From Tubiluchus corallicola (lineage: Eukaryota; Animalia; Priapulida), in NCBI GenBank assembly GCA_030141605.1, contig JAQGDQ010000875.1, positions 21,610-85,609 of the forward strand: a DNA stretch of 64,000 nucleotides, written 5' to 3'. The position numbers and the translations under genes are program-made. The notes under the pieces are model-generated. The model was not told the DNA's origin. It ran no database searches and was given only the letters and a program-made list of their open reading frames with translations. Positions within the stretch are counted from its first letter, which is position 1. Each line of letters starts with the position of its first letter. Positions 9,631 through 60,630 of this stretch are shown one piece after another.

Positions 9631-9632
9631 AG

Positions 9633-32714: not shown

Positions 32715-32994
32715 GTAATTTTCGTAGACTAAAAATAGAACTAGGCTACCCAAGCAGTGTGAGAAATCTCTTACTAATAATATTGTCATGGAATGAACGA
32801 GAAGTGTATTAAAGTAAGGGGTGCTGACCAGGCCATTGTCATGGAAGTTACTAGTGTCTGCTGGTTTATCTGCTGTGTTTACCTTTTAGATTTTTTATGG
32901 GAGTCTGCTACCAAATCTCCTAGAAAATAGTTGTTCGCTGGGTAATTACTTTTTAACTACTTTGCTCAACTGATAAAATACGTGTGCGTTTAAT

Positions 32995-33300
32995 GACTAG
33001 TCCGGCGTACGAAGCATTGGGTTACTCGCGTACCGAGATTCGCGTCGGCTTCGAGTACTACCATGACGAAGCATGGTTGTGCCCAAAAGTTCAGTTTCCT
33101 AGCTGCTCTGCAAGCCGAGTTGCAGCTGTTTTTCAAAACAAGCTGCTCTAAAAGCTACGATCGTACACGCGCGCACGCACGCACGCATGTATGTTTTGCT
33201 CGAACGTATGTGTACAAGCTTTTAGTACCGAATACAATTATTTTGGCTGGTGCCCTTTCGTCGGTTCCTTTAAGCTACGCAACGTTTTTGCAATAGTGCT
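32995..33300. mobile_element. Possible Helentron-associated (HINE/DINE-like) non-autonomous element
   Basis: CpG-rich block starting ACTAGT, with a TGTGCCCAAAAGTTCAGTTTCCTAGCT core and an internal (CACG)n microsatellite. Single copy, so the assignment is weak. Confidence 0.25.
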
Positions 33301-35399: not shown

Positions 35400-35469
35400 A
35401 GACACAAGGAGATAGAAGAGAAAGATACGAAAGAGAGGGAGAGAGAGAAAGAGAGGGGGAGAGAAAGAC

Positions 35470-35525
<56 letters not shown>
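35400..35525. repeat. (GA)n / purine-rich microsatellite
   Basis: Seen directly in the sequence. Confidence 0.9.
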
Positions 35526-35527
<2 letters not shown>

Positions 35528-37272: not shown

Positions 37273-37444
37273 GTTGCAGTGAAGATTGTCAGTAAGAAGA
37301 AAGCCAAAGAAGACGCGTATGTGATTCGAAACCTGCGACGGGAAGGCAAACTGCTTCAGTTGGCAAGACATGCCAACATCATTGAAATATATGAAGTAAT
37401 GGAAACAGAAAATAGCTATTACCTTGTCACTGAGCTTTGTGCAG
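37273..37444 (+). CDS. HUNK: HUNK exon 2 (VAVK lysine, alphaC)
   Basis: Reads VAVKIVSKKKAKEDAYVIRNLRREGKLLQLARHANIIEIYEVMETENSYYLVTELCA. Confidence 0.95.
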
Positions 37445-37930
37445 GTGGGTACCTCTTAATTATTAGTACCAGCATAAGCTATAAGGTAAAAAGATAGATA
37501 TTAAATTGTGTAAGGTTTCTCAAATTAACTTTATTGCTGATCTTCAGTGTTTTTTGCCTATAACAAGTGTTTGCATAGAGATTATCCAACAAAATTATTA
37601 TTAGGGAATACTCCTAATTATGATTAGGGAAAGACGAGAGAGGAGGTCAAGTGGCAAATGTAATCTATTTATTCTTCCTAAAGCTCACTAGTGATTTGTG
37701 ATGTTCTATTGTTTCTTCTTGATTTTCGTGTTCATGTATTGGTGGTGCACATCACCACTTGGGAATGCAGTCTGTGAGTCAGCTGATCATTTGATTGTTT
37801 GTTTGTCTGTTCATTCTTTAATCTTTATTTTATAAATCTTTCCATTCGTTCATTCATTGGATTGCCACTGATTTATTTTTTCATAGTTTAATACCTCGTT
37901 CAGTCATTCATGGCGCTATTTATTTTGTAG

Positions 37931-38051
37931 GCGGTAACATGATGGATTACATTTGCAAAAAGAAACGTCTGGAAGAAAAAGAAGTGCGTCGATTCATGCG
38001 CCAAATGATCTCCGCTGTGGATCATCTTCACAGACATGGGATACTTCACAG
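37931..38051 (+). CDS. HUNK: HUNK exon 3
   Basis: Reads GGNMMDYICKKKRLEEKEVRRFMRQMISAVDHLHRHGILHR; donor CACAG|GTATGG. Confidence 0.95.
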
Positions 38052-38551
38052 GTATGGTGCAGTATACGTCACAGGTATGGTGCAGTATATTACTGCTAGG
38101 GATACTTCACAGGTATGGTGCAGTATATTACTGCTATTTCCAAGATTACGGTTTATAGACTCCAGCACAAGAAGTTTACCAGAAACTTGGTATTCACGAA
38201 GTAAGAAAGAAACACCGGTTGAAATTTTCTCTAAAGAATTATTTGTTGCTAAACTTGTTGCCAGAATTAGTGTTTTAAAAAAATGCAAACAGCAAATTAT
38301 ACAGCCAAAGACACCAAGTCCTGCTGATCATCCTGTCAATCTGTAGGCCTAAAACTCCCGAAAGTTTTCTATTGAAATTCTACGACATTGTTATGGCTTT
38401 CTTACGTGTGTATGTAGTCCAAGTTATTGAAGTTACACGATATACAGGTGTACGAAAAACATTAGTACTCAAGTAGGACCCATATTCAATCATCTGTTAA
38501 GCCAATTAGTACATCATCATTTATCAATTTCGTTGATCATAATGATGAATC

Positions 38552-38887
38552 TTAAAGGAAAACCGGATGATTGTGTAAATATGAGTTCAGAATACAGAAT
38601 GCTCTAAAATATTGAAAACTACAATAGATTTTTTTCATTCAAAGCTTGGGTTAAATAATAATTACATCGGATACTCAAATTTTGTTGAACTTTCACAGCT
38701 ATGCGCGGCTCAGTGAATCTACTAAGGTTGGCAACGGCGCCTTTTTGTCACATTTAACTTTCTAAGCTAATTATTCAAATACAAGGAACAATTGTTAACT
38801 TTTACAGGCAAGAAAATGTATATTTTGGGCAGTAAATTAAAATGAAATTGAGTCTAGACTCTAGACAATCGTCTGGTCTTCCTTTAA
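38552..38887 (-). mobile_element. T2/Kolobok-type MITE copy 4 (internally deleted)
   Basis: TTAAAGGAAAACCGGATG...GTCTGGTCTTCCTTTAA; central part missing. Confidence 0.82.
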
Positions 38888-40619
38888 ACTCTTCTAAACT
38901 CTCTCACTTACTTGACACGAACTAATGTGAGTGGTTACGGCAATTGTTTGCAGGGTTGCCATATCAGAATGATAGCTCTTTACTTGTAGATGTTTTGTAT
39001 TTCAAGAGTTTAGGTCAGCAAAGATTATCAATAAGTATTCAGCGTTTTCAGACGGGGCGGGCATCAACACTTAACACTAATTTACTCTAATTATTGGGTT
39101 TGCTGAAACGAAGGAAGAGACAGCCTTGATACAAAAGACATGCATAATTACACTTTTATGAAAATTCCTCGCGTTTTTCATGCGAAAGACTATTCTAAAA
39201 AAGACAATTTAGCCCCCTGGTAATAGAGGTTATCTTCACGCACAAAAGCAGTTAAATAATACCCGTGCATACTACAACTTTAATGCCTCCAGCTGTTTAG
39301 CAAGCGTCTACACATCAGACACAACCAAATACGTAGTACAATAAATAAAACCAAATCTGTGTTTTCTGCAAGGCTATGGGTCAGCAGAACTAAAACGTGC
39401 CAGAATGTAGGGAAGTGAACTCAAAACTTGGCAGTGACACAGTTTTGCTTACAAACCAACAAAACGCAAATGGCGACACAAACAGTTGAAAAAAATAGGT
39501 CGTTTTAGATCAGTTCCCGTGTACGAAATATTAATGCGTTACTCGAGTAAAATATACATAGGTAAAAATATACACATGCCTGGAGAGCAAATGTAAATAT
39601 ACAGACCTTGAAAACTTCAGTTTCTTTTCACGTACAGATTATGCAACCAATAAACTGTAAAATTTGACACATCATACAGCCTAGCGTACCTACAACGTGT
39701 GTAACTAAAAATAGACACATTATCCTGCTGACGTATTACGAATATAGAACCATTGTTACAGACAAGCTTTTCCGTTGAAAATTAACCAGACCATACCGCT
39801 AAATTTACTGATTTCCAAAACTTGTTTATCCTAAAAACCAATAACTGCAACAACAACATTATTTTTAGGGTGAAAAGAAATTACGAAACCAAATGATAAA
39901 TTCCCAAACCGCAAAAGATAAACGAAAATTCATTGGAAATAAGTGTTGTAACGTGCAATCAACCTGTTTCGCGAAATTCTTTTATACTGTATTACCAGTT
40001 TCTTGTCCTAAACCTATCATTAACTCGAGTAACTAGCGGGAATCTTCAATTTTCGCAAGAACTCGGAAATAAAATGTGAGATTATAATTCCTTTCGCATA
40101 GCATTAGTGTCGTGTTTAGAATACTTCGTAAAAAAATACTGAAATATCGTAACATTACAGCAGCAGGACGGAAACAAGACAGTTAAGTGTAAGACCTATT
40201 ATAATAATTTACGGTGATGATTAACGGCTTACAATAAGCACGAATACTGATTAGCTATATCTTAACTGAAGCAGCGATGTTTTCTTTGTTAAAAATGATA
40301 AATTTAACCAGTTTGAATCAGGCGACAAAGCTGTAATAAATCGTGACTGAAGTTAAATATAAAACCTCACGCTTGGGGGCTTGTTTAGCTGCATTTAGTG
40401 TGTTAATAAGACAGCGTTGATATGACAATTGAATACAAAATCATATGAATCATATTTATGTCAGTGTTTACATAATAGGATTACCTTGTACCGATAACAT
40501 AATTGCAAATGAACAAACATAACAATAAAATGTATATTTGCTGCTGGCCTTAGAGGATCTTAATTATGATACTTAAACCACAGTCACATTAGTTTGCTGA
40601 TAGCGTATTGTTTAATTCA

Positions 40620-41176
40620 TATGGTAATGAAAATCCTAGCGAACGTAGGGCTGAATGAACGAATGGATGGACGAACGAATAAATAAACGCATGAATACGT
40701 GAATAAATAATGAAGGAAAAGAGGAAGGAAGAATGAAACGATTGACTGAAAGAATAAATGAACTGACGAATGCAACAGACTGACTACAAATAAATAAATT
40801 AGTAAATAAATAAACAAAAAATAAATGAATGAATGAATGAATGAATGAATGAATGAATGAATGAATGAATGAATGAATGAATGAATAAACGAACGAACGA
40901 ATGTATAAATAAACAAATGAGCGAAAGAACGAACGAAAGAATGAATAAATGAATGAATGAATGAATGAATGAATGAATGAATGAATGAATGAATGAATGA
41001 ATGAATGAATGAATGAATGAATGAATGAATGAACAATTGAACAAACGGACTGTTTAGTGAGAGAAAAGATATTCTTGGCAATCAGAATATTCCTAACTTT
41101 CTTGAACTCTTTAAAAACGGTTTTTCTGTAAATTGGTGTAAACCTGGGCAAAATTGTATAAGTTTTTACTGTTATT
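40620..41176 (+). repeat. About 560-bp block containing (GAAT)n/(GAAC)n, copy 1
   Basis: Direct repeat of 43263-43856, including unique sequence on both sides of the microsatellite. Confidence 0.9.
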
Positions 41177-42285
41177 TGTCATTCACCTTTTTTTGTTAAC
41201 CTTAATCATGAAAAAATGTTTACTAAAACTTCGATTTTGACGACGCCAATCGAATGCTAACACAATATATAAGTAATTATTGCATTCTGTATTGTGATGG
41301 TATTCTGTATTGTGCCGTGACAAAACGTTCGTCACAACAGGAAGGTCGCTTAATTTCCGTAAGTATGCAATAGTTAATCAAACATAATTGATCATACCAA
41401 TAACTTTTCGATCAAACTATGAAAACTGAATAACAAAATACTGCATTGGTCTTGGTTCGTTAGCTAGACATGTAAGGGACCTTGGTATGTGGCGATTGTG
41501 CGCTACCGTACATCCATCGCGCAAACAACCTTTACTTAGTGTAATTAGCTGAGGATATTCACGGGTTTTATTTTAAAAGTAAACTCTCGAACATGCAAGA
41601 TCAGGGAAAAGACAAAAAACTAAAGCCATTGTTATTTGTTTAGACAGGCGAGAAGTTGGTCAATGGGTCATTGATGTAACACGCACCCTTACAGCTCAGC
41701 AATGAGTTAGGCCTAATCTAAAGAAAAAACATAACTTTTGATTTTGAATTAATACCACTGTGATTAACACTTTCGATTCAAGTTTGAACGGGAGTAAAAA
41801 ATGTAGGTATTTGCCATTTCATTAGCTACATTGATTCGACATATTCGCTAAGAGAAAGAAAGACAAGCAACCAAAATGTACTTGAAAACATTGTCGTTAA
41901 CTGGTTATTTATAGTTATTAAAAATATTCTTACATATGTTTCGACAATTGAGATATTATTTACGAGAAAAATTCGTCCTTGAAACCCAGGAACTTGACAC
42001 ATTTTAACGAAACTTGGCCCTATTTAAGATTTGAAAACAATGTTTGAACGAAAAAACACGGGCTTAAAGAAAGAAAAATATTAGTGAAAAAAGGCCAAGA
42101 CATGCACGGAATTCTTACAAATCACAGACTATTTACAGGGCAAAAAGAATCACTAATTGCGCAGTGCTCACGCATAGTTCAGTAATTTATTTTAAATCAA
42201 TTCTCCTGGCTGTGTTGTGCATACATAAACTTTGACGCAAGTTATGCAAATACGTTAATTGTCAATGTCTTTATTTTCTTTTCAG

Positions 42286-42341
42286 AGATTTAAAAGTTGA
42301 GAATTTACTGCTAGACGAAAATCGTGACATTAAAATTATAG
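42286..42341 (+). CDS. HUNK: HUNK exon 4 (catalytic loop)
   Basis: Reads (R)DLKVENLLLDENRDIKII(D); TTTCAG acceptor, GTAAGC donor. Confidence 0.96.
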
Positions 42342-43262
42342 GTAAGCATAATCTATATTTCAAATCTAAAAACTGTGATTTAGTTGGTTTCTGTGTTTTA
42401 GTATAGACCTATAATGGAACCGCTTCAAATATTCTTATTATACCACGATTGATAATGTATTTTCCTTGCCTTGTAAAGCAACTTATTAAAATTTAATGGA
42501 GCGAAAAAATACACGCATCCGATGATTTGCAATAATTATGATACGTTATTGTGATTCCAGGTAATGACTGTTTTGTCTGGGTAATAACGCACAATTTAAT
42601 TGTAATAAAACCTCATTAGAATTTGTTGGAAGGCTCTTTGAAATTTGTTTCCTTTTTGGTATAAGAAATTTTTGCTAATTCGTAAAATTATCAGAGAAAT
42701 GTTATCATGGTGTTTTGTTTTCAAAAGAAGTAGGCCTGGTTGTTACGCTTAATAATTCGTTTTTATAATCACGTGTTACTTGCAATGTCGTCAAGTGGTC
42801 TAAGACACCTGATCTAGAGAATGCTTGTTTGGCTGCTCATCGCAGGTAATTCGACTACTTAACGTTATAATTCCTACTGCTTAACGTGAAACGCGCTGTA
42901 TGAAAGCGAATAATTTTAACTAATTTACTTATCGCAGATACCAGACGACTTGTTCGGTGCGACTAGAGTAAACTGATATTGCATTGAAGCACCTACGACC
43001 GCATATGAGCAATCGCAGTCACGTTTTGTGCCTTCTCATTAATTTAAATGTACACATTGTTATCGCCCAGCATTATTCAACCTTTACATTCGGTTGGGTA
43101 GTGATACTACATAGAATTGTCGTGCATCATTGAACCTGTAATGCACAGTGTAACCGATAAGATTATCGGTGATAAGTCGATTTGACGATGTATAAATTAC
43201 CTCCAATGCAGACACAACCAGCTTGTGCAACGTGGCAATGCCATAGGAAGCAGAAACGTTTT

Positions 43263-44083
<821 letters not shown>

Positions 44084-44471
44084 TAAGTAAAAAATCAATA
44101 AGATTCCATATGATAAAATTAATTGAATTAACTCAGCTCAGCTTCAGTAGTTAAGTAAATGCTTCACTATGCCAACAGACACTTGGAGTACTAATATAAG
44201 TTTCACTCACCTGTTATATCACCACTATTAGTTTTAACTTACGTGTAACTTTACGTGTTTTAATATGCAATAGTTTAAATTAGTTTCTGCAACTGCTAAT
44301 TATAATTGTAAGTTTATTTTGAAATTTTATTGCATGTGTACTTTTTAGTATGTAATTTTGCTTGACGTATCTGAAAAATTACGAACTGTTAATTTTAATC
44401 GTAATTTCTTCTCATTATTTCAACGCATTATATTGTAACGTGTAATTTTACTATGTAATTTACTTATTTAA

Positions 44472-44475
<4 letters not shown>

Positions 44476-44558
<83 letters not shown>

Positions 44559-44645
44559 CTGTGTGTTTGTCTGTTTGTCTGTTTGTCTGTTTGTCTGTCT
44601 GTCTATCCATCTACCTGTCTGTTTGTCTGCCTGTCTGCCTATCTA

Positions 44646-44680
<35 letters not shown>

Positions 44681-44965
44681 GTCTATCTATCAATCTATCT
44701 GTCTGTCTGTCTGTCTACCTACCTACCTACCTACCTACCTACGTATATCCATCCACGTATCCATCCATCCATCCATCCATCCATCCATCCATCCATCCAT
44801 CCATCCATCCATCCATCCATCCATCCATCCATCCATCCATCCATCCAGCCATCTATCTACCTGTCCACCTACCTACCTACCTACCTACCTACCTACCTAC
44901 CTACCTACCTACCTACCTACCTGCCTACCTGCCTACCTACCTACATACATACCTACCTATCTATC
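44476..44965. repeat. Compound microsatellite (CT)n-(GTCT)n-(CCTA)n-(CATC)n-(CCTA)n
   Basis: Seen directly in the sequence. Confidence 0.95.
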
Positions 44966-46992
44966 TCCCTATAAGTTCCAAACTTTTGAATAGATGTTTT
45001 TCGACCTTAAATGGCTCATGAACATATTGATGCCACATTTGACAACTACGTCTCTCAGCCCCTTCCTTCATCCTAATAAAATTCTGTATTCTCTGCAGAG
45101 CATAAAAGCATCTCTGTTTTAGTTAGAAATCTCTGGATCTGTTGCGACTAACAATGCGTAATTCGAATTTATGAATGGCTCTTAATATGTGTAAAAACAA
45201 GTTAGATTATCCAATTATGCTTTACACGAGAAACCATCTGATTTGAATACATCAGCTATCCCATAATGTTCACCAGTAAAAACTAAACTAATTCACAATA
45301 ATATTTATTTATAACACAACCGACTTAATTATCACATTTCAAAATAATGGCTTTGGAATGTGTAAATTTTCTGTCGTTACATCATTTCGTGATGACTTTT
45401 GTTCATTGGCACTTTAGTAAAACATTTTATCCTAAAAATTAATGTGAATCTCATTGTTATAATCAGAATTACTGATCGATTCAAATCTAGCCAACAATAT
45501 GAAGTAATTACGTCTTAATTAATCACACTTTTTTACACACCTGTACATAAATTTTTTACCGGATTTAAAATTAAACACTTTAAACACACTAAAGAATGCT
45601 CATTTTGCGAACGGAGAGGTAGATGAGTGGTCACGGTGTGCTTAGCCATCAAAGTTAAGCAACGCCGAGCCTAGTGAGTGAAGAGATGACATTCGCTCGC
45701 CTGCATGGCACATTCGCCCTACTGATCCTAGCTTTGCCTCGTTACGTGAGGACGTAATCACGTCTGAACACGGCTAAGAGAGTGTCTCATTTTAGACCAT
45801 TAGTCTTGATAAGCAAAATTCCAATCTTGTCACAACCATTGACAATTGGTCATAACGACGAGTGCTGCACAACACAACAGTTTACATTATGTTCTGCCGA
45901 ACTGTACTAAAAACTATGTTCTATCAAAATTTGATTAATTTCCGGCTACTTTGAACCGCCATTTTCTATCCCACAATGCCCATCGCGCATCACATTAATT
46001 CCAAGAATTACAATCAGTAACTTACCTAAGAAAGCTTAACAAAACAAGAGAAAAAGTAACTGACGGCTGACATTATGCTACACGTCCGTTAATCTTTGTA
46101 TTGATAGTCAGGTGGCGTTTTTAATCGGCTGTAAAATTTGATTTCGTATTCAGCAAACTAAGCGTTGTATTATTACGGTACAGTAAACAATAGAAAGTGA
46201 CCGTTTTAGGACATGAATTTCAATGGGCTGCGTTTTAGGTTAAGAATTTTATGATGACACAGATTTTCAGTTTTATGACGTTCATGTGTTGAAATAAAAC
46301 GTTTTGGTTTGCCCGTGTGAAAAGTAAATAACAAGCTGGTGTGAACGCCGCTTTTACCTTTTTGTTGCAAATGGTAGAAATTCAATAAAACTTGACGACA
46401 TTCTTGTGAACAAAGAAATTGGAAATTTATAATTCGGTTAGTGAACAAGTTGTTGTCAGTAGCGTAAATAAATAAAATTAAGTGGCGATTGACGCAAAAG
46501 TTTATGTAAAACTTTGTCCTAAAATTAGATTTCGGGAAAGTAATATGTAATATGAAGATTTTACAGGAAAAGCCTTTAGGGATTGTTGTAAACGGGATAA
46601 CTGTGTGGAAAAATCAATTTTTTCAGGATTTTATCCGTATTTCTATGCATTAGGCCTAGATAGTATAACCTGATTCGTACATCACAAATACTTCATACTC
46701 GCTTTAAACAATAGTCAGCACCACTATACACAAAAAACAAAGCTAGACAAAGGTTTAGAAAAATTTTTTAAACAAGGTTAGAAGTTGAATTCAGGCCAGA
46801 ATTAGGGGGATCGAATAACTAGATGTTTAAAAAAGTACGAAAAGTCTCTATGCAACCAGAATTCTTTAGTTCTGAATTTAAACGCCATACATGTAAAACA
46901 GAAACGAATGACCCGCTAAATTAATGGATTTATAAGACCTATTCATGGTGCACATATTTCTATTGCAAACGTTTTTGTTAATTACAATTTAA

Positions 46993-47449
46993 CCCTTTCA
47001 TACCCGTTGTATCCCGTGGGATATGGGAATATTTTCTGCATTTAAAATTAATAAAATTTTAAAACTGACAGTTATTTGATCTGTTAATAGTTATTTTGAT
47101 TTAAGCCAATAACAATAGACTAAAACTGGTGATAAAATGGCAAACTAGAAAATCTACATAGCATAAAAAACTGCTCAAGGTACAGTACTTTAGAGACGAC
47201 TTTGTACAGATCAGCATAGCGTGCATACTAAATGTCTTAAATACTTTATAAAAAATTATCAGCAATTGCAAAATGAAGCACATTTCATGCTTCCGTTGAA
47301 TCTCAGTGTATCCCGTGGGATACAGGCTATATTTAGCACGCGGATACAGGCAGAAAAAAATTATTATGTGTAAACAAGATGGACATACTGAACAAAAGTA
47401 CCAAGCCAAAAAATTTTTTTATTACAAAAATAATTTGGGACTGAAAGGG
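46993..47449. mobile_element. piggyBac-type MITE
   Basis: TTAA|CCCTTTCATACCC ... GGGACTGAAAGGG|TTAA; internal GTATCCCGTGGGATA repeats. Confidence 0.8.
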
Positions 47450-48486
47450 TTAAACAATAAACGAGGCTTAGGCTACTGTAGTTACAGCGATAACAGCAGA
47501 TTAAAAACACCCGTGTAGCTAAGAATTCAAATTGCCTAACTAAATTGCTCCAGGGTTTTATTAAATTAATGACTATCGACTTATGGAAATATATCGGCTC
47601 ACAAGAAAACGTAAAGCATTGTTTTCTTGCTTCATATTTTCAAACACATTTCAAATAATGTAAATAATATAATCCATAAAGTCCCAGGTAAATCATGCTT
47701 AGACCAAAGCATCTTAAAAATATAAAAATTTTAGATGAAATCTCGCTGAATAAGGTTATAAAGCCAACCGTTGATAATGTGCATTAAATTAATGGAAGTA
47801 GGTTAAGCATACTTTTGCTAAATTCCTTTTTAAAAACCAGTTTCTTCTTAAATTAAAAACACCACAATTAATAATCACATCCAACCAGAGTTTAGGACAG
47901 CATAATTTAATTTATATAGCGTAAAATTATCGAGTTACTTCAACAAACAAGCAACAACAATAATTACAGCAATGAGTAAACGATTTCGATAATTACTAGC
48001 CCATCAGCTAGACAAGAAAAATGGAACAGTTCACAAAACGCAAGCATATTTACATTAGTTTGCTCAAACAATTGTTGATGAATTGCCATTTATGAGTAAC
48101 CTGCCCTTCCTGTAAATATTGCTCAATGAATTTTATCATTTTGTCCATCTGAAATAAGTCAGTGCGCTCATTATAACTGTATTGTGCGAGGATAATGGGT
48201 TTTTGCTCTTAATCTGATAATTTACCGTCGCAAAATGAGTTCAATACCAAGCGCATTGTAATTCAGCAACAAATCTTGCAGGTGTATTAATATTATTACC
48301 ATCAAACGAATGTTTGTCATTAATCAAAGATCGTCTTGAATAGTACACTGGGCCTGATATATCTACAAATCAATATACTTTCATTGGCTTTTCTTACTTG
48401 ACTTGTGTATGTAGTCAAAACCATACAGTATCTTATACTTTTCTTTAATATTTGTCCATCTTAGTAATCCCGCTAAACTGAAGAGT

Positions 48487-49034
48487 TTAAAAGAAGACCG
48501 GACGCTTGTTTAGACTCAATCTCATTTTAATTTATTGTCCAAAATATACATTTTCTGGCCTATGAAAGTTAACAATTGTTTCTTATATTTGATAATTAGG
48601 TTAGAAAGTTAATTAACGGCAACAGAACACAGTTGTTGGTTACGTCAGAGACTAACCACAGTTTGTGCAATGCGCGTCTTCCCTTGCGCATCAAGCACAT
48701 TTGCATAAGTGTTACTGCTTAAACTCAAGATGTCAGGAAAATAGGTTCTACATCATATGACGTCAGAAACTAACACTGCAGTTCATGACATGGTTATCAT
48801 GGTACCGCCTTCTATTTGTCGGCCACGCGCATGTGACAAAAAGGCGCCGCTCCCAATCTTAACAGATTCACTGAGCCGCGCGTAGCTTTAAAAGTTTAAC
48901 GAAATTTGAGTATCCGAGGTAACTATTTCTTAATGTAAGCTTTGATTTAAATTAAATCAAATTGTAGTTTTCAATATTTTAGAGCATTCTTTATTCTGAA
49001 CTAATGTCTACACAATCATCCGGTTTTCCTTTAA
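48487..49034 (+). mobile_element. T2/Kolobok-type MITE copy 5
   Basis: TTAAAAGAAGACCGGACG...CATCCGGTTTTCCTTTAA; full-length body. Confidence 0.85.
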
Positions 49035-49280
49035 TAATATAGATGGATATACACAGTATAACCAATCTATATAATATATTTTTAACACAAGCTTTCAACT
49101 ATACAAAAGATAAAAAGGTTTTAATGTGTTGTGCAGACCCAGTACAAGGAATTCTTAATTGATAAAAACGATGAATTTGTTGACGAAACAAAGTCATTAA
49201 GAAATACCAAATTCAAAACGTAAACTGTTTTCATTCGGAAAAACGGGACCTAAATGAACAAGAATTTGTAATTCTATCAA

Positions 49281-50643
49281 ATGTTGTCACATAGTTTTAC
49301 GTAATTGTCTAATGATGAGTCTTGTTACAGTGGGGTGAATATGTTGCCACATAGTTTTACGTAGTTGTCTAATCATGAGCCTTGTTACAGTGGGGTGAAT
49401 ATGTTGTCACATAGTTCTACGTAGTTGTCTAATCACGAGCCTTGTTACAGTGGGGTGAATATGTTGTCACATAGTTTTACGTAGTTGTCTAATCATGAGC
49501 CTTGTTACAGTGGGGTGAATATGTTGTCACATAGTTCTACGTAGTTGTCTAATCATGAGCCTTGTTACAGTGGGGTGAATATGTTGTCACATAGTTTTAC
49601 GTAGTTGTCTAATGATGAGTCTTGTTACAGTGGGGTGAATTTGTTGTCACATAGTTTTACGTAGTTGTCTAATCATGAGTCTTGTTACAGTGGGGTGAAT
49701 ATGTTGTCACATAGTTTTACGTAGTTGTCTAATGATGAGCCTTGTTACAGTGGGGTGAATTTGTTGTCACATAGTTTTACGTAGTTGTCTAATGATGAGT
49801 CTTGTTACAGTGAGGTGAATATGTTGCCACATAGTTTTACGTAGTTGTCTAATCATGAGCCTTGTTACAGTGAGGTGAATATGTTGCCACATAGTTTTAC
49901 GTAGTTGTCTAATCATGAGTCTTGTTACAGTGGGGTGAACATGTTGTCACATAGTCTTACGTAGTTGTCTAATCTTGAGTCTTGTTACAGTGGGGTGAAC
50001 ATGTTGTCACATAGTCTTACGTAGTTGTCTAATCATGAGCCTTGTTACAGTGGGGTGAATATGTTGTCACATAGTTTTACGTAGTTGTCTAATCATGAGC
50101 CTTGTTACAGTGGGGTGAACATGTTGTCACATAGTCTTACGTAGTTGTCTAATCATGAGCCTTGTTACAGTGGGGTGAACATGTTGTCACATAGTTTTAC
50201 GTAGTTGTCTAATCATGAGCCTTGTTACAGTGGGGTGAACATGTTGTCACATAGTTTTACGTAGTTGTCTAATCATGAGCCTTGTTACAGTGGGGTGAAC
50301 ATGTTGTCACATAGTCTTACGTAGTTGTCTAATCTTGAGTCTTGTTACAGTGGGGTGAACATGTTGTCACATAGTCTTACGTAGTTGTCTAATCATGAGC
50401 CTTGTTACAGTGGGGTGAACATGTTGTCACATAGTTTTACGTAGTTGTCTAATCATGAGCCTTGTTACAGTGGGGTGAACATGTTGTCACATAGTTTTAC
50501 GTAGTTGTCTAATGATGAGCTTTGTTACAGTTGGGTGAATATGTTGCCACATAGTTTTACGTAGTTGTCTAATCATGAGCCTTGTTACAGTGGGGTGAAT
50601 ATGTTGTCTAATCATGAGCCTTGTTACAGTGGGGTGAACATGT
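49281..50643 (+). repeat. 60-bp minisatellite (22 copies + one 39-bp unit) built from the HUNK intron 5/exon 6 junction
   Basis: Unit ATGTTGTCACATAGTTTTACGTAGTTGTCTAATCATGAGCCTTGTTACAG|TGGGGTGAAT; the final unit is the real acceptor at 50629. Confidence 0.97.
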
Positions 50644-50757
50644 ACGCAATGCTAACAGGAAATCTACCGTTCACAGTGAGTCCCTTCAACATCAAAGCTC
50701 TTCATACAAAGATGATAAACAAAGAGATGAACCCCATGCCGGAAAATCTTAGTAAAG
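50630..50757 (+). CDS. HUNK: HUNK exon 6
   Basis: Reads GVNMYAMLTGNLPFTVSPFNIKALHTKMINKEMNPMPENLSK (compare GVNMYAMLTGTLPFTVEPF); donor G|GTAAGA. Confidence 0.95.
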
Positions 50758-50950
50758 GTAAGAATTTCCACAACTGTTAGCTTATACGTGGGCGATGCCG
50801 GTGGGGGGGGGGTACAAGACGAGATTAACGAGACAAGTGTGTGTGTGTGTGGGGGGGGGGGTCGTAAGTCCCACCATTTGGCAGGTAAACAATGATACTT
50901 AGTGGTATCTAAATGATCTTTGCTTAAAAGTGAGTTGATTTCTAACTCAA

Positions 50951-51292
50951 TGGCTATCCAGGTGCAGGACTGCCTAACTTCGTAATTAAGCTTACACTTT
51001 GGCTATCCAGGTGCAGGGCTACCTAACTTCGTAAATAAGCATACACTTTGACTATCCAGGTGCAGGGCTAGTTAACTTCGTAATTAAGCATACACTTTGA
51101 CTATCCAGGTGCAGGACTACCTAACTTCGTAATTAAGCTTACACTTTGACTATCCAGGTGCAGGACTGCCTAACTTCGTAATTAAGCATACACTTTGACT
51201 ATCCAGGTGCAGGACTACCTAACTTCGTAATTAAACATACACTTTGACTATCCAGGTGCAGGACTACCTAACTTCGTAATTAAACATACACC
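50951..51292. repeat. 49-bp minisatellite x7, HUNK intron 6
   Basis: TGACTATCCAGGTGCAGGACTACCTAACTTCGTAATTAAGCATACACTT units. Confidence 0.95.
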
Positions 51293-51407
51293 ATTACTTT
51301 TCAATGTTTCTCGTTCTGATTACAATTCATTAGTCGTTGCCATAAAATTATCAGGGTGGTAAAATAGTTTATCTGCATAATCAGATTTTCATTTCATCTT
51401 TATGTAG

Positions 51408-51500
51408 CTGGATGTGAATTCATGTTAAAGCTACTTGCTCCTGATCCTGAGGAAAGGATCACTTTAGCAGATGCCATGCAACACAGGTGGATTAACGAAG
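51408..51500 (+). CDS. HUNK: HUNK exon 7 (end of kinase domain)
   Basis: Reads AGCEFMLKLLAPDPEERITLADAMQHRWINE. Confidence 0.93.
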
Positions 51501-52826
51501 GTAAACATTTTTTTACCAGAACCAGTTCTTTGTGGAATTTAGCACTAATGTCGTCATTGTCGTGTTTTATATATGCTGTAAACAAAAAGCACGTAAACAA
51601 ACTTAGACACCTACTGTGTGACAAACATGTATAGCATCCATTGTACTGATATTGTTGAGCGTTTCATAGAGTTAATGATGTATAAATATACTCTAATTAG
51701 CTAAAACGTAAATAATTACTGCATACTTTATACGAACTGCCAATGACTAGACACACCTGGTGAAATATTAATTAACCTGCACATGTGTGAACTATTAGTT
51801 AATTACAGGTGCCAGTCAGTAACCAAGAGAAGACAGTTTGCTAATGCAGGAACAGTAGGTTTAACTTATACAGGATCCAGATTCACTACATTCTTGTTAT
51901 CCATTATTTATAAACAACATTCAATGAACTTGATGATATATAGTGTCAGTATCAGTGAATGAAGTAGCACTGATGCTCTTAGCAAGGTTTCTTTACTAAT
52001 GAATATCTTCACAATCAAACGACGATGTCTCGAATGTCAATAAACTTGTTATTCAAACCTATTGTTCTCTACTTGACTCAAGCAGTGTGGCTTCTCGTAG
52101 TCACAGTGCAGCCACCATTTCTAAAACTTGATGAGGGTGATTCAGCTTAACATATTCTTGAAATCTGGCAGATCAGGCAAAGGGCCAAGCTAGACTTTGC
52201 ATGGAGCCTTGCATGTTCTGTAACTCAGAAGCAGTTGGTGCTAATGTCATACAAAATGCGGAGGTTATACCCACTCCAAGGCTTAAAGTTTTTTATCTGA
52301 CACAAATATGAAGGCTACAGGTCATGGTCGAGTGCTCGCAAATCGCGCGTAGTATATGCACGTATGTCTTCTGCCCTTAAATGTAAGAGGTACTTAATAT
52401 CAGATGCTATTGAACTGGTTAGGTTAGTCCCCTAGTCGCATTCATCTAAGACAGATCGAGACACAAGAGTCAAATGCTCCACTCTCTAGCTTACATGTAA
52501 AGCAACTATGTCCAGAAATTCTGTCATAAAGATATAGATATTTTAAAGGGTACTATGTAAAGCATGTGGAGCATGTATAAAACAGCGAATGATCTGATTC
52601 TATTATCAACTCATTGAAAAAATTTTGAGACGTACTTCAGAACTACATGTGTTAGTAGTCTGATCAAACTTATAAATTGATTATTTTACTATTAAATTGT
52701 ATAAACCTAATGGATCAGCACGCACGGCTTTCACAATGAAAGGTTTCTGATCCTTATTCTAGACTGATTCTTAAGGATTTACTTAGACAATCTATTGTTA
52801 ACTTCCCATTTACGTTTAGTGTAATA

Positions 52827-53310
52827 CAGTCAACTTCGAGTATAAGGTACTCGCTTATAAAGGACCACCAGCACCGGTCCCGATTTTTCGTAACGTTTTT
52901 CCTATGTAAAAGTCTTCGTATATAAGGTACTCGGATATAAGGGACTTTCGGTTATAAGGGACGATATCTTCAGGTCCAGTGTAATAGAACTCCGGTAAAT
53001 TACCTCATAATATATAAGGAACCCTATGATCAAAGCGAAATTGATCGATTTTTAACCTCAATTTTTTTGCAAACTCGGCTTACGAACAGCTTGGTTTCCG
53101 CGTCACATACATCTCGCATCACTGAAGGAGCTTCCTACATATCGTTTGCACTGAATGTGTAGCAATAATCCATAAAAATATGGGTAAAGGTGCAGAAAAG
53201 TACAAGTCTAGATACACCTGCGATCTGACTCAACTTCGGCTATAAGGGACATCGGATATAAGGGACGGTCTTTTCCGGTTCCGAGGTGTCCCTTAATCCG
53301 AGGTTCACTG
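52827..53310. mobile_element. pogo/Tigger-type (Tc1/mariner) MITE
   Basis: TA|CAGTCAACTTCGAGTATAAGG ... CCTTAATCCGAGGTTCACTG|TA; internal GGATATAAGGGAC repeats. Confidence 0.75.
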
Positions 53311-54779
53311 TAATAATCGGTCCCAGATTTATAAGTAGAAGTTACATCCCACTGGTGTTTTATCTCACAATTTGTAAAAAAAAGCCAACACGTTGTAACT
53401 TCGGTACGTAAACCAAACGAGGTGACAGGAACATGACACTAATTATAAAAATATTTGTTTTCTATTACACGTTTAACCTTGCTTCAGGAACTGTTTCTTC
53501 GTGACGCGCTGGAAGGCGACCTAGCTAAAAACTGGACCAAGAAACTAAAAACAACTCCCTAGTCTTGATACTACTAACCTCTACCTGTCATTCCCATAGT
53601 GTGTAAGTAAATTAAGAGCAAGAAGAAATTAGCTGTCACAAGAGCATGAGTTACTTAGAGTGCTCGACCTCGTACCTGGTAATTAATGCGTTACATAAGG
53701 AATACCCGAGGTTATGGCACAGACTGAATATACATGACCTGAAGGTCTGGAAGGTAACACGAAAAGTTAACCGATTTGTAACAGTGACCTTATTTTCCTT
53801 GTAAAAGAAAAAACGATGTGCCACAAATTGTTGCCTAACGGAAAATTTTCAGTGGAACGACAGTGAGGAGTTTTCGAAAGAGTGACCAATTCTTTGAGGT
53901 CTCCAAGTACATTAGAGGTCTCCACAGAAAATGACAAAGGTACTCTGTGAACAATGGGACTTGCCTTATTGTAGGAGACGTAACTGTTGTCATGTATGAC
54001 TACAACATTAGAAACAAAATAAATAAGAAATGATCTTTTGCAATCTTACTGTTATTGAAAAGGTATCTATTCAAACTGTTTAGTTCATGTAGAAGAAACC
54101 TTGGTGATAAGAAGATATTTACTAAAGGGTTTGGTGAGCATTATCAACAGTTTTTTAATTAATTTAAATATCAGTAAGTAAACCAGTTTTAAACCATTAA
54201 TTGAAATGAAATGATGCATCAGAACGTTTAAAGTTTGAAGCTTTTATTATTATCACATTCAGTACCATATAATGACGTGTAATACATGGTAACATCAAAA
54301 AATTATTACGTCATACTGTAATAAATTATTATGTTTCATACACTATTGTTATCACAAAAGAATAATTGTACTGCAGTGGGCTACAGAAGCAAAGGCTTGT
54401 ATAAGCCCGCTGTTATGTTAACCTGATAAAAAAGAATGGATGAGTGAACAAAAAAAGAACTGGGAGAAGGTTTTATCACACGGGACAGGAAGAATGATGA
54501 GTTAGTGGAAATAGTAGGAAGAAAGACAGTAGACTGTGCGCTATTTACATCAGCTCTAAAGATTTATCAATGATGTTTTGTATAATCTGTACCAGGATTG
54601 TAGTATGATTATCATTAGAAACTAATGATATAAACTATCAATACACCAATATTATGAACATGCTGAATTACAACAACGTCCAACTGCATTCTCTTCTTTT
54701 CAAAGAGAATTTTTCTGCAAATGTGATAATTATTCATTAATATGGGTATGGACATCGACAAACAAAGGCATATTTTATC

Positions 54780-54963
54780 GGTTATCTAGGATAAGATGAC
54801 TCAAGAGAGGTGTCTTAGCTGAGTTAGGAATACATACATCCTCAACAAAACAAACAGTATAACAGATAAAGCAGTTTTCCTAGCAGACACCCATCCATTT
54901 ACGGGCCAAACTCTGTGCTGCTTAGCTACTGCAGCTAAGTTCACACTGTGAATACTCAGCTGT
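54780..54963 (-). mobile_element. Second, diverged 5S-derived SINE family (another head at 55666-55745)
   Basis: Minus strand AGCTAAGCAGCACAGAGTTTGGCCCGTAAATGGATGGGTGTCTGCTAGGAAAACT resembles the 5S A box/C box region. About 75 bp is shared with 55666-55745. Confidence 0.5.
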
Positions 54964-55184
54964 TCAGGTTTTGGTAATCTTGACATTTCTGCCCTATAAT
55001 AGCGTTAGATGATTTCGAAATAAGCTTTGATTGCAGATTGTAATTTTGCAAAGTTTTATTCCATGCTGTCTGTGTTTGTGAGTTTAATGAAACCATCGTG
55101 TTCATATCAAATTCACAAAAAAATTACGTTCTGACTCTGATGGGCTTATTCTAATTATTCTAACAACAAATTTACTTATTCTAG

Positions 55185-55312
55185 GTTATAATAAACCTCT
55201 AATGCCGGCTTCATTCCCAAACAAGATCAAGTCAGAAGACCTCAACTTTAACATCATGAAGCACATGACGGACAAAATGAGTTTTACTCTTAAAGATGCT
55301 GTCAGCCATATT
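55185..55312 (+). CDS. HUNK: HUNK exon 8 (UBA/SNH-like region)
   Basis: Reads GYNKPLMPASFPNKIKSEDLNFNIMKHMTDKMSFTLKDAVSHI (compare YPNRISLEDLSPSVVLHMTEKLGY). Confidence 0.88.
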
Positions 55313-55740
55313 GTAAGTACATACACATTTATGATGATATACAGCGTCTCCTAGCATTTATCACGATGGCGAGTCAATTTTATTTTCACGTTGAACTGTT
55401 TTTACTTCACTTTTGTGCCAAAGAAATAACAACTTACAGCGTTTGTCATTTATACACGTGTGTGATGCCCTGTAAACGCAGACGTGACAACTCTCACACA
55501 TTAGGCGTGCGTCACACGCATTTTGAGTCTTTCACACGTGCACACGCATCAAATTTCAGTTCCCACGCATTCCGTAACTTCACACGCAAGTTTGCTAATC
55601 ACCAGCTTCGAATGATACGCAAAAAATATCATAATTTTTTTATTTTTTGCCTCAATTTTTTGATGACACCCATCCATTTGTGGACCAAGCTCTGTGCTGC
55701 ATAACTATTGCAGCTATGTACACGCTGTTGTAACACAGTT

Positions 55741-56623
55741 GTAACTTGGTCTATACGTCGCTAATGAATGCGAGCATTTACCATTATGAGCAGTAACTTG
55801 GTCTATATGTCGCTAATGAACGCGAGCATTTACCATTATGAGCAGTAACTTGGTCTATATGTCGCTAATGAACGCGAGTATTTACCATTATGAGCAGTAA
55901 CTTGGTCTATACGTCGCTAATGAACGCGAGTATTTACCATTATGAGCAGTAACTTGGTCTATACATCGCTAATGAACGTGAGTATTTACCGTTATGAGCA
56001 GTAACTTGGTCTATACGTCGCTAATGAACGAGAGTATTTACTATTATGAGCAGTAACTTGGTCTATACATCGCTAATGAACGCGAGTATTTACCATTATG
56101 AGCAGTAACTTGGTCTATACATCGCTAATGAACGCGAGTATTTACCATTATGAGCAGTAACTTGGTCTATGCGTCGCTAATGAACGCAAGTATTTACCGT
56201 TATGACCAGTAACTTGGTCTATGCGTCGCTAATGAACGCGAGTATTTACCGTTATGAGCAGTAACTTGGTCTATACGTCGCTAATGAACGCGAGTATTTA
56301 CCATTATGAGCAGTAACTTGGTCTATACATCGCTAATGAACGCGAGTATTTACCATTATGAGCAGTAACTTGGTCTATATGTCGCTAATGAACGCAAGTA
56401 TTTACCATTATGAGCAGTAACTTGGTCTATACGTCGCTAATGAACGCGAGTATTTACCATTATGAGCAGTAACTTGGTCTATACGTCGCTAATGAACGCG
56501 AGTATTTACCGTTATGAGCAGTAACTTGGTCTATACGTCGCTAATGAACGCGAGTATTTACCATTATGAGCAGTAACTTGGTCTATACGTCGCTAATGAA
56601 CGCGAGTATTTACCATTATGAGC
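55741..56623. repeat. 52-bp minisatellite, about 17 copies, HUNK intron 8
   Basis: Unit GTAACTTGGTCTATACGTCGCTAATGAACGCGAGTATTTACCATTATGAGCA; unrelated to the 11.6-kb 52-mer. Confidence 0.97.
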
Positions 56624-56678
56624 AAAACTTATCAGGTGAGCTGCTTGAATTTTTTAAAGAAAATTTCTATTATTTCAG

Positions 56679-56807
56679 GTAAATAATCAAGCAAATACAG
56701 GCGCTCTGGCAGTTTATACGCTGCTTCACAGGCGACTACAGAAACACAGTCTGGAGAAGAAAAATCGAGCTTCATTTCAATCTGACAAGGAATCTGTTAA
56801 AACAACT
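56679..56807 (+). CDS. HUNK: HUNK exon 9
   Basis: Reads VNNQANTGALAVYTLLHRRLQKH... (compare NRACHILAIYFLLNKKL); phase 0/0. Confidence 0.85.
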
Positions 56808-57519
56808 GTAAGCAGCCATTGCTAATAAAGTCTGGTTATTGTTTTGAGTTATTTTGATAATAAAAAGTATTTTGAAACACTTATTTTGGCACTAAAGTAC
56901 AAAAACTTGTGAAGGTCCATTCATGGAGCTCTCGCAGTTTATTGCCATTTATGTTCCAAATGCATTGAATTTTTTATAGCACCAATGAAAAATACTTTTT
57001 GTGCTAACTTTTTACTATATATTCATAGTTATATATACACCCTTTTCTATAGCTAGCAGATGACTGCTTCATGTTAAATTTTCATCCTCACTGGCTTGTT
57101 CACATCCGTTTCTTTCATTTTTTTATTCAAATGAAATTTTTTTATACAAGACCTGTTACTTGAAATTTCACAGTCTGGGCATTTTTACAAGCTTGGCTTC
57201 TTTAATGCCCTGCAACACAAACCATTTAATTGGGTAGCTAATATTTTTTTTAAAATTTACTTCTTATTGGGTATCTTACTGTTTGTTAACCATTGAAATA
57301 TTGAAAACTTTTTGTTTCCTTTAATGTATTTTATGTATTTGTTGTAGATGTGAAATAAACAATCTTGAATCTTGAAATCGTGGATCTCTCACAGTTTATT
57401 CACATTTATGTTCAAAATACATTTAATTTTTTATAACACCAATGAAAAATACTTTTTGCAGTAACAGATGACTGGTTTATTTCAAAATTCTCTTCCAATT
57501 GACATTTATTTTCTTGCAG

Positions 57520-57751
57520 AGTTCTACAATGATCAAGATGAGTTTGCCGCCTTCGAGAGCGGATAGTGTAAAGCCTCTGCACGCGACGCATCCAAGAAGC
57601 CGAAGTCGACAACATCAACAGAACATTACAGTTAAACCAGCTGATGTCAATCAGAAACCAATAGACTTCACAAAACCCCACCAGGCGGAGCTTGCTGTGA
57701 CAGACGATGAACGAGAGAAAAAAGATACTGAGGCACCCCAAAAGCTTGAAG
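57520..57751 (+). CDS. HUNK: HUNK exon 10
   Basis: TTGCAG acceptor; reads SSTMIKMSLPPSRAD...QKLE; donor G|GTAAAG; phase-consistent. Confidence 0.75.
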
Positions 57752-58077
57752 GTAAAGAAGTGGTACAGAATTAACATATATAGAAGAAACAGAATTTGAG
57801 TGCCTTAACTAAGTTTGTACTTTGATGTTTGTGGAGGACTTTATTTACATAAAAAAGGAGCACATTTCTGTCTTACAATATCATTTCAAATGTTTACAAT
57901 TGCTGAGGTTTCAGCTTCCATTCACCTAACAGATGGAAAGTAGGTGATGAAGTTTGTAGGCATGATTTTTGTTAACAGAACTTATTTCTGTTTTCTAAAT
58001 TGCTAGTGAGTTTAAGATTTCACCTTTTAAATTAAATCATATGCTTGTACAGTGTACATTATACACTTTTCTTCCAG

Positions 58078-58931
58078 CTAATGTTACTGCCAAAAACACG
58101 ATCAACATCAACAATACCAACAATCAGAACATAAACAACACGCTGACACCTGTTGGAGACAAACCGAGGGTAGGAGATGATACCACGTGCACAGAAGGAG
58201 GTGCAGGAGAAGTGGGAAAGAGAAACAAAAAAGCAGTGGAAAAGCTCGACAAGCTGCTATATGGCAAGGATAAGGATATTAACATCGAAGATGCTGAGAG
58301 AGAAGACAATGCATATAAATTCCAAACGATAAGGACGGATGGAAAAAACGCAGAGTGGCTTGCAAAGAAAATCCAAGAGCAGACGAACAACGCCAACAAG
58401 CCGAACTGCAAAGATTCATTTTCCGATACGGAAAAGAATCATTCAAATAATAACAATAACAAATCTAAGCGTAAAACAAAACTTTCCATATTGTCCAACA
58501 ATGTGAACACTCGAGTGTACACGTCGCCAAGTAGAGACTCGAAAGCCAGTAATTTGCAAAACCACTTGAAGAACATTTACAGCCGACCGTTACATGCGGG
58601 AAAAAAGAAAGGCAACACAGAGGCGACATCACATCAGCCTACTGCAAAGGAGAAAGACGGCGCAAAGGGTCAGCTACCGGTTATGGTTGGAGTAAATATG
58701 GCATCGAAGCCAAACGACAACCGACTCGGTGCAAATGTGGAAAATCATAAGAAAGTCGAAGCCAATGAGAAAGTGGAGGACAAAGTGCTAACAGTAGAAG
58801 ACAGAATCATGCCAAAAGAGGAAGTGAAACTGCCTCGTGTAAAGCTGCAAAGAAACAGACCTGTGATCAAAGAAAAAGTTAGAACGACACCATATAGAGA
58901 AAAACTACATGACGTGGTGGACACTAAATAA
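58078..58931 (+). CDS. HUNK: HUNK last exon (Asn/Lys-rich disordered tail)
   Basis: TTCCAG acceptor, phase 1, open frame to TAA at 58931. Summed exons total 2295 nt (764 aa). AATAAA at 60361. Confidence 0.78.
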
Positions 58932-60384: not shown

Positions 60385-60630
60385 AACTACATTGTTTTAC
60401 ATTTATTTTATTTGTGATAAAACACTCAGCTGATAACAACGTGAAGTATCTTTACTATCAGATGCAACTACATTGTTTTAAATTCATTTTATTTGTGATA
60501 AAACACTCAGCTTATAACTACATGAGGTATCTTTACTATCAGATGCAACTACATTGTTTTAAATTCATTTTATTTGTGATAAAACACTCAGCTTATAACT
60601 ATGTGAGGTTTCTTTACGATTAGATGCAAT
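60385..60630. repeat. 81-bp tandem repeat x3 between convergent HUNK and YRDC 3' ends
   Basis: AACTACATTGTTTT... units at 60385, 60466 and 60547. Confidence 0.9.

What the first reader, a model, noticed from the sequence alone, without database searches (positions are those of the whole stretch)
49281..50643. Array of 22 decoy 3' splice sites in front of HUNK kinase exon 6
Seen: each 60-bp unit contains a branch-point motif (GTCTAAT), the acceptor CTTGTTACAG, and the first ~14 nt of exon 6 (TGGGGTGAAYATGT). Acceptor AGs recur every 60 nt from 49330 to 50590, and the real one is at 50629. Splicing to any of the first 21 reads T-GVNMLSHSFT-stop (or a close variant), truncating the kinase in its C-lobe. 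Splicing to 50590 inserts 13 aa in frame (GVNMLSNHEPCYS). Inference: the spliceosome must skip 22 near-identical acceptors, presumably by exon definition. Array length could then act as a heritable dial on productive versus NMD-targeted HUNK mRNA.
Basis: partly seen in the sequence, partly recalled or inferred. Interest (0 to 1): 0.8.

Follow-up and report, generated by a model that had tools for sequence, protein, structure and literature searches.

The report
Splice-acceptor "mirage" repeat in HUNK gene
A 60-base piece spanning an intron end and the next exon's start in a kinase gene of what is likely a priapulid worm is repeated 22 times in front of the real exon; splicing likely skips the copies, so this is probably an ordinary, tolerated case of a repeat type already known from lancelets and humans, not a proven gene-dosage dial.

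Summary
In detail: 22 acceptor copies end at 49330+60n up to 50590, and the real AG is 50629. Use of 21 copies predicts a stop at residue 232 of 741; use of 50590 predicts a 13-residue in-frame insertion. The gene is HUNK-like, closest to a Priapulus protein. The array is present in DNA reads, including a second sample. The intron sits at the same position in 26 of 26 related loci that hold it, and none has a duplicated acceptor, so the array is local and not a conserved device. It fits the lancelet "mirage" class (tandem copies of intron/exon boundaries, reported not to disturb splicing). Human CBS 844ins68 has nearly the same anatomy, and there the downstream acceptor wins. Best reading: a microhomology-seeded minisatellite in a minisatellite-rich region, with the last copy chosen by exon definition. 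No RNA covered the locus, so acceptor choice and the NMD dial are untested. Read depth weakly hints at a shorter array in the second sample. The scan noted such arrays before in other genomes (seven of eight notes listed). Verdict: new member of a known kind; interest 0.2.

The parts
49281..50608 (+). Minisatellite of 22 units of 60 bp. Each unit is the last 46-50 nt of intron 5 (branch-like CTAAT with its A at -19, weak pyrimidine tract, CAG) plus the first 10-14 nt of exon 6. 16 distinct unit variants, mean pairwise identity 94.9%.
49281..49284 (+). ATGT microhomology at the array's 5' end, matching ATGT at exon 6 +11..+14 (50640-50643); inferred seed of the first duplication
   Evidence: sequence; mechanism inferred
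50591..50629 (+). Terminal 39-bp unit: a 60-bp unit lacking 21 bp between two GTTGTC hexamers. The missing part holds the in-frame TAG, so acceptor 50590 would add 13 aa in frame.
   Evidence: not covered by any read contig (inconclusive)
50630..50757 (+). Exon 6 (128 nt; GVNMYAMLTGNLPFTV...), real acceptor AG ending at 50629, donor AAG|GTAAGA
   Evidence: same phase-2 intron position in 26 of 26 related loci with the intron
43926..44082 (+). Exon 5 (DFG...APE...DVWS), donor at 44082; intron 5 is 6547 nt
   Evidence: 8 of 8 listed X5 differences synonymous
38041..38136 (+). Second junction duplication in the same gene: the exon 3 donor (38051) is repeated at 38074 and 38112. Use of either copy would shift the frame (stops at 160 and 175).
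32559..58931 (+). HUNK-like kinase gene, 11 coding exons, 741 aa: 32559-32714, 37273-37444, 37931-38051, 42286-42341, 43926-44082, 50630-50757, 51408-51500, 55185-55312, 56679-56807, 57520-57751, 58078-58931
   Evidence: 73.7% identity over 388 aa to Priapulus caudatus P0002 and 53.8% over 351 aa to bird HUNK P0054

Best explanation
This is a minisatellite made of tandem copies of the gene's own intron 5/exon 6 boundary (a "mirage"), which likely arose by DNA slippage, is likely tolerated rather than functional, and is likely removed with intron 5 because the spliceosome would pick the last copy. Shown: the unit is the junction itself, and both ends of the array carry the same ATGT. Neighbouring units are more alike than distant ones. 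The terminal unit lacks 21 bp between two GTTGTC hexamers, and the intron is ancient while the copies are not. Inferred: (1) a first 60-bp duplication by mispairing at ATGT; (2) growth by slippage or unequal crossing-over; (3) a deletion in the last unit. (4) The acceptor is weak and identical in all copies from about -28 to +14, so choice must come from downstream. Only 50629 is followed by a whole exon and lies 128 nt from a strong donor, against 167, 227, 287, 347 nt and more for the copies. Cross-exon definition would therefore select it. (5) A small leak to the nearest copies is expected: 50530 and further upstream would feed NMD, and 50590 would give a likely inactive kinase with 13 residues inserted in helix alphaF.
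For: Anatomy and microhomologies. Unit differences rise from 2.5 between neighbours to 3.5-3.9 at 9-10 units apart. The exon +10 C allele is in 9 of the last 12 units and the real exon but in 0 of the first 10. Nine tandem arrays with periods of 24-81 bp fill 9.4% of the window, and a second junction of the same gene is duplicated (2 of 20 junctions). Of 46 related loci, 34 held both exons: 26 have the intron at this position with 0 acceptor copies, and 8 are contiguous without any insertion. The other 12 had no exon 6 match (many loci are close kin, so not 26 independent lineages). No insertion at this site in 27 of 27 proteins matched by pattern, nor in 6 more read by eye, among 56 homologues. 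The gene is under purifying selection. Weakest acceptor, strongest donor. Precedents: lancelet mirages do not interfere with splicing (PMC3087553; PMC3902484). CBS 844ins68 duplicates 52 intron + 16 exon bases and the distal site is strongly favoured (PMC7490669; PMC2630376). F7, LMNB2 and PDGF donor-side arrays use only the authentic site (PMC1557585).
Against: No RNA read or transcript contig shows which acceptor is used. No copy has lost its AG. The 13 variable columns avoid the last 8 intron bases plus CTAAT with P = 0.027 (columns chosen after seeing the data; P = 0.12 for the last 8 alone, 0.61 for the AG). In the human 6-16 gene and CBS intron 13, two pseudo-sites are used besides the real one (PMC1557585), so leakage can be real. 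Three to four copies lie within about 300 nt of the donor, and four score slightly better than the real site in the crude matrix (49690, 49930, 49990, 50350). The matrix rests on 9-10 sites, and 95 of 230 upstream intronic AGs score as well as the real one, so it has little power.
Confidence: 0.75

Rival explanations
1. Length-dependent dial: each copy captures a fraction of splicing events or of U2/U2AF, so longer alleles send more HUNK mRNA to NMD and array length sets kinase dose.
For: 21 of 22 copies predict an early stop with five junctions downstream. The real acceptor is weak and the signals are intact in all units. A rough depth estimate gives 5-9 units in sample X2 against 18-23 in X1 and 14-23 in X3, a weak hint of length variation; the tool warns that summed contig depth is no copy number.
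Against: Not conserved in 26 of 26 related loci. Under exon definition only the nearest few copies compete, so units added far upstream should add little (inference). Published mirages are reported not to disturb splicing. Similar arrays lie deep in introns of the same window, away from any junction.
Confidence: 0.12
2. Alternative-acceptor isoform: the array as a whole is inert, but the nearest copy (50590) is used often and makes an NMD-resistant +13-aa kinase. Less likely, a 30-nt in-frame mini-exon inside a unit (AG ... TAC|GTAGTT) is included.
For: 50590 gives a normal-sized 167-nt exon, in frame and without a stop. [quoted passage not shown] PMC3087553 proposes that a mirage unit can become an exon.
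Against: The insertion falls in the DVWSxG helix (alphaF; established kinase structure, recalled), where 33 of 33 homologues read at this site have no insertion. The in-unit donor scores 2.7 against 3.6-8.7 for real donors (the real ones scored leave-one-out). The 39-bp unit was not confirmed in read contigs.
Confidence: 0.08
3. Assembly artefact: the array, its length or the terminal 39-bp unit is mis-assembled.
For: No listed contig spans the array or the 39-bp junction.
Against: The unit is present at high depth in three runs of two samples. Rough depth-based counts in X1 (18-23) and X3 (14-23) fit 22, and the left junction is assembled in X1 and X3. The 16 unit variants show an ordered gradient.
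Confidence: 0.05

Closest known systems
Lancelet 'mirage' minisatellites (Adh3, globins BflGb6/BflGb9, troponin C, PGBD5); PMC3087553 and PMC3902484, passages read
   Same: Tandem repeats spanning an intron/exon boundary. BflGb6 is also acceptor-side (intron 3' end plus exon 5' part). Many units keep splice signals, units are 10-160 bp, there is concerted evolution with distinct boundary units, and both 5' and 3' boundaries are affected.
   Different: Likely a priapulid rather than a cephalochordate. 22 copies against 3-6 for BflGb6, and all copies keep the AG. Splicing outcome and instability were tested there, not here.
Human CBS c.844_845ins68; PMC7490669, PMC2630376, PMC11017215, passages read
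   Same: Duplication of the last 52 intron bases and first 16 exon bases, against 46-50 + 10-14 here. The downstream acceptor is strongly favoured and mRNA is normal. A TGGGGT lies near the duplicated exon start in both. A reference title (Romano 2010, title only) names G runs as silencers of the unwanted 3' sites.
   Different: A single extra copy, not an array of 22; vertebrate; tested by RNA.
Human donor-side junction minisatellites: F7 intron 7 (37 bp, 5-9 units), 6-16 (25 pseudo-sites), CBS intron 13, LMNB2, PDGF; PMC1557585, abstract, Introduction and Discussion read
   Same: A VNTR whose end unit spans an exon boundary and repeats an identical splice site; the exon-proximal site dominates.
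   Different: Donor side, where 5'-3' scanning explains the choice. On the acceptor side the chosen site is the last one, which needs exon definition or silencing instead. The exon 3 donor copies of this gene (38051, 38074, 38112) are the direct match to this class.
Regulated unproductive splicing (AS-NMD, poison exons; recalled, no call)
   Same: Alternative acceptors would introduce an early stop.
   Different: No isoform seen, no conservation (0 of 26 loci), and no sign of a regulator.

Membership tests
Mirage (junction-spanning minisatellite) | Tandem repeat whose unit spans an intron/exon boundary of the host gene | tested here: met
   Unit = 46-50 intron nt + 10-14 exon nt; 22 copies of the junction 20-mer within 2 kb
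Mirage (junction-spanning minisatellite) | Minisatellite-sized unit (10-160 bp in the lancelet cases, PMC3087553) | tested here: met
   60 bp, plus one 39-bp unit
Mirage (junction-spanning minisatellite) | Many units keep AG/GT splice signals | tested here: met
   AG in 22 of 22 units
Mirage (junction-spanning minisatellite) | Concerted turnover inside the cluster with distinct boundary units | tested here: met
   Differences rise with distance; private variant in the first unit, two in unit 50530, deletion in the last unit
Mirage (junction-spanning minisatellite) | Length instability between alleles or cells | tested here: inconclusive
   Rough depth estimate 5-9 units in X2 against 14-23 in X1/X3; contig depth is no copy number and low-depth runs lose variants
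Mirage (junction-spanning minisatellite) | Regular splicing is undisturbed | not testable with these tools
   No RNA holder listed; the one RNA-guessed run laid nothing
Regulated unproductive splicing (AS-NMD) | Alternative splice event creates an early stop upstream of further junctions | tested here: met
   Predicted only: stop at residue 232 for 21 of 22 copies
Regulated unproductive splicing (AS-NMD) | The unproductive isoform exists and rises under NMD block | not testable with these tools
   No RNA data
Regulated unproductive splicing (AS-NMD) | Arrangement conserved across species | tested here: not met
   0 of 26 related loci with this intron have a duplicated acceptor; close priapulid relatives not tested
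Recursive splice sites (AG immediately followed by GT; definition recalled) | Acceptor directly followed by a donor GT | tested here: not met
   AG is followed by TG or TT in all 22 units
HUNK kinases | Ser/Thr kinase domain whose nearest named relatives are HUNK | tested here: met
   Pfam Pkinase on exons 2 and 5; named hits are HUNK or MARK-like labels, vertebrate hits all HUNK; 53.8% to bird HUNK over 351 aa
HUNK kinases | Orthology by phylogeny against MARK/AMPK outgroups | not tested
   No tree was built

The most novel reading that the evidence does not exclude
The array is a length-polymorphic acceptor sink. Because exon 6 has the weakest acceptor of the gene, each intact upstream copy diverts a share of splicing to NMD, while the shortened last unit opens an NMD-proof +13-aa kinase-dead isoform. 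Minisatellite length would then be a fast-mutating, heritable control of HUNK dose, and alleles of about 5-9 versus 22 units in one species would be a natural experiment on how 3' splice sites are chosen among identical competitors.
Probability: 0.12. Interest if true: 0.55.

Novelty: new member of a known kind. Interest (0 to 1): 0.2.

Why it matters
As it stands it is one more case of a known by-product of repeat turnover. It extends mirages to a likely priapulid and shows that 22 intact acceptors in front of a weak real one can be tolerated in a conserved kinase gene. Its use is as a test bed. The sites are identical and differ only in distance to the donor, so one RNA-seq data set would measure how sharply exon definition favours the nearest acceptor in an invertebrate. 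If allele length changed the productive fraction, it would be a clean example of a VNTR splicing dial on the acceptor side. Practical point: such arrays mislead gene predictors and homology alignments; tblastn with P0006 ran into the last units.

Tried and rejected
No whole genome is held, so no genome-wide count of junction arrays was possible. No RNA holder listed. Run X6 (RNA is a guess) laid nothing on either stretch, which is no evidence either way. X2, of unknown kind, proved to be DNA: one contig runs through both ends of exon 5. No contig covered 50609-50613 in any run, or exon 6 in X1/X2; filters and bubble removal can cause this. X5, the diverged relative, was laid on exon 5 only, so the age of the array is open. 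RNA structure as the selector was rejected: predicted unpairing of -10..-1 is 0.002-0.030 for copies and 0.004 for the real site. Recursive splicing was rejected (no AG|GT). Exon 6 skipping gives a stop at 224, so it is no productive escape. Rfam finds nothing in or near the array, only two 5S-like matches elsewhere. The unit was not among the matches printed outside its array in the window (listing cut at 40 rows). Pfam gave no family for exon 6, exon 1 or the first GOPC-like exon alone (3 of 7 queries). Paper searches listed no paper on a HUNK or priapulid array, but none used those words, so absence from print is not claimed. PMC4732748 was checked and is irrelevant. The original Adh3 paper and Romano 2002/2010 were not read, and no supplements were read. 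No earlier scan note lies near this place or resembles the sequence.

Full report
Observation. The window holds a 60-bp tandem array at 49281-50608 (22.1 copies, 95% matches, score 2362) and a 39-bp period at 50564-50643. A pattern scan finds 23 acceptor-type AGs: 22 at 49330+60n up to 50590, and one at 50629. GTCTAAT and TTGTTACAG are unchanged in all 22 units. Thirteen of 60 columns vary, giving 16 distinct units with 94.9% mean identity.

Gene. Snapping tblastn hits to AG/GT gives one open model of 11 exons and 741 aa at 32559-58931 (my first attempt had off-by-one exon ends and was discarded). A search with exon 2 returned 56 proteins. The vertebrate hits are named HUNK and the invertebrate ones HUNK-like or MARK-like. 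The model is 73.7% identical over 388 aa to a Priapulus caudatus protein, at most about 62% to any other, and 53.8% to bird HUNK. It also matches the Priapulus protein in the poorly conserved tail, so the animal is likely a priapulid. No tree was built. The gene looks functional: a diverged orthologous contig in run X5 differs at 8 listed exon 5 positions, all synonymous, where 21% of random changes would be (the contig had 11 differences in all, 8 listed).

Predicted products. From donor 44082, 21 of 22 copies give a stop at residue 232, 50590 inserts GVNMLSNHEPCYS in frame, and 50629 gives the full protein. Skipping exon 6 stops at 224. The insertion falls right after DVWS-x, in helix alphaF by established kinase structure (recalled). 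Among 56 homologues, 27 matched a pattern across this site and all have one residue there. Of the 29 unmatched, 9 were read by eye: 6 span the site without an insertion and 3 lack the APE motif used to locate it. The other 20 are short fragments that I did not inspect.

Is it real DNA? Four runs were laid on 50482-50950. X1 and X3 (one sample, possibly the source) and X2 (another sample) hold the unit at summed depths up to 6668, 378 and 104, against 174, 10-14 and 5.5-8.2 for unique contigs. X1 and X3 join the left flank to a unit. A rough conversion gives 18-23, 14-23 and 5-9 units. The tool warns that such depth is no copy number, and low-depth runs lose variants, so the shorter X2 figure is only a hint of length variation. 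No contig covers the junction of the 39-bp unit, which is inconclusive. No RNA holder was listed, X6 laid nothing, and X2 is DNA. Acceptor use is therefore untested.

Origin. The array begins with ATGT (49281-49284) and the copied part of the exon ends with ATGT (50640-50643), which suggests microhomology-guided slippage. The last unit lacks 21 bp between two GTTGTC hexamers, and the missing part holds the in-frame stop (mechanism inferred). Neighbouring units differ by 2.5 bases and units 9-10 apart by 3.5-3.9. The synonymous C at exon +10 is in the real exon and 9 of the last 12 units but none of the first 10, the pattern of local turnover. The region is rich in such repeats: nine arrays with periods of 24-81 bp fill 9.4% of the window, and those I read (11573, 50954, 55741) lie inside introns away from junctions. 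Two of the gene's 20 junctions are duplicated, this acceptor and the exon 3 donor. Random placement of the gene's nine tandem loci would hit at least one junction with P = 0.19 and two with P = 0.02; without the focal array P = 0.16. No special targeting is needed, though mild enrichment is not excluded.

Conservation. Thirty-four hold both exons. In 26 the intron lies at the same phase-2 position with AG before x-G-V, and none has a copy of its junction. Eight are contiguous with no insertion, and 12 had no exon 6 match. Many loci are close kin, and none is identifiably a priapulid. The intron is old, 50629 is its conserved acceptor position, and the array is lineage-specific.

How the right site is likely chosen. 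Copies and real site are alike from about -28 to +14, and predicted RNA structure does not separate them. In a crude matrix from the gene's own sites, this acceptor is the weakest of 10 (leave-one-out -3.4; 10 of 18 pyrimidines) and the exon 6 donor the strongest of 10 (8.7). The matrix is weak: 95 of 230 upstream AGs score as high as the real one. The real exon is 128 nt; the copies would give 167, 227, 287, 347 nt and more. A weak acceptor that leans on the downstream donor would favour the last copy (inference from the exon-definition model). A second, untested contributor is the G run after each AG. Against a purely neutral view: no copy has lost its AG, and the variable columns avoid the last 8 bases plus CTAAT with P = 0.027. 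That set was chosen after seeing the data; P is 0.12 and 0.61 for narrower sets. Homogenisation with the constrained real copy could give the same pattern.

What is known. [quoted passage not shown] It reports length instability, concerted evolution and no interference with regular splicing. PMC3902484 (passage) adds troponin C and PGBD5. I was led to this name by earlier scan notes and checked it in the papers. PMC1557585 (abstract, Introduction, Discussion) lists human donor-side arrays. Only the authentic site is used in F7, LMNB2 and PDGF, while two pseudo-sites are also used in 6-16 and CBS intron 13. CBS 844ins68 duplicates 52 intron and 16 exon bases, and the distal site is strongly favoured (PMC7490669; PMC2630376; passages). 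Seven of the eight earlier scan notes listed describe acceptor arrays of three or more copies in other genomes; they are unchecked AI notes and no evidence for this locus.

Verdict. The thing works like, and by four of four resolvable features is, a mirage; length instability is inconclusive and splicing outcome could not be tested. I give 0.75 to a tolerated by-product with the last acceptor dominant and a small leak. I give 0.12 to a length-dependent dial, 0.08 to a substantial +13-aa or mini-exon isoform, and 0.05 to an assembly fault. New member of a known kind; interest 0.2.

Noticed in passing
window 38041-38136: The exon 3 donor CACAG|GTATGG of the same gene is present three times (38051 real, 38074, 38112); the copies would shift the frame. 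A small donor-side mirage.
   Followed up: partly
window 11573-13031, 18109-18397, 50954-51291, 55741-56624, 60385-60629, 62681-63938: Six further minisatellites (periods 52, 72, 49, 52, 81, 40 bp). The 52-bp array in a GOPC-like intron has a diverged solo copy at 11437-11472.
   Followed up: partly
window 5173-14379 (+) and 3411-3665 (-): A GOPC-like gene (PDZ domain at 10367-10540; the name GOPC is recalled from the sequence) and a NOMO1-like exon on the other strand. A frameshifted reverse copy of the first GOPC-like exon lies at 9704-9914 (80% identity to 5272-5475).
   Followed up: partly
window 21499-21933 and 28150-28571: Two 88%-identical elements of about 430 bp that begin with a 5S rRNA match (Rfam 80 and 56 bits), likely a 5S-derived SINE.
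   Followed up: no
window 1760-2319, 7940-8511, 16363-16698, 38548-38894, 48476-49034: A dispersed repeat of about 560 bp, five copies in both orientations at 81-89% identity; one lies 250 bp upstream of the array. Likely a non-autonomous transposon.
   Followed up: no
window 40621-41176 and 43264-43857: Two 84%-identical elements of about 570 bp with an internal AATG microsatellite, in introns 3 and 4 of the kinase gene.
   Followed up: no
run X5 on window 43900-44094: A contig about 94% identical to exon 5 and its flanks in a run with the same species label as the source: a diverged population or a cryptic relative.
   Followed up: partly
window 62205-62350 (-): A probable last coding exons region of another gene on the minus strand, ending toward the kinase's 3' end; not identified.
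   Followed up: no
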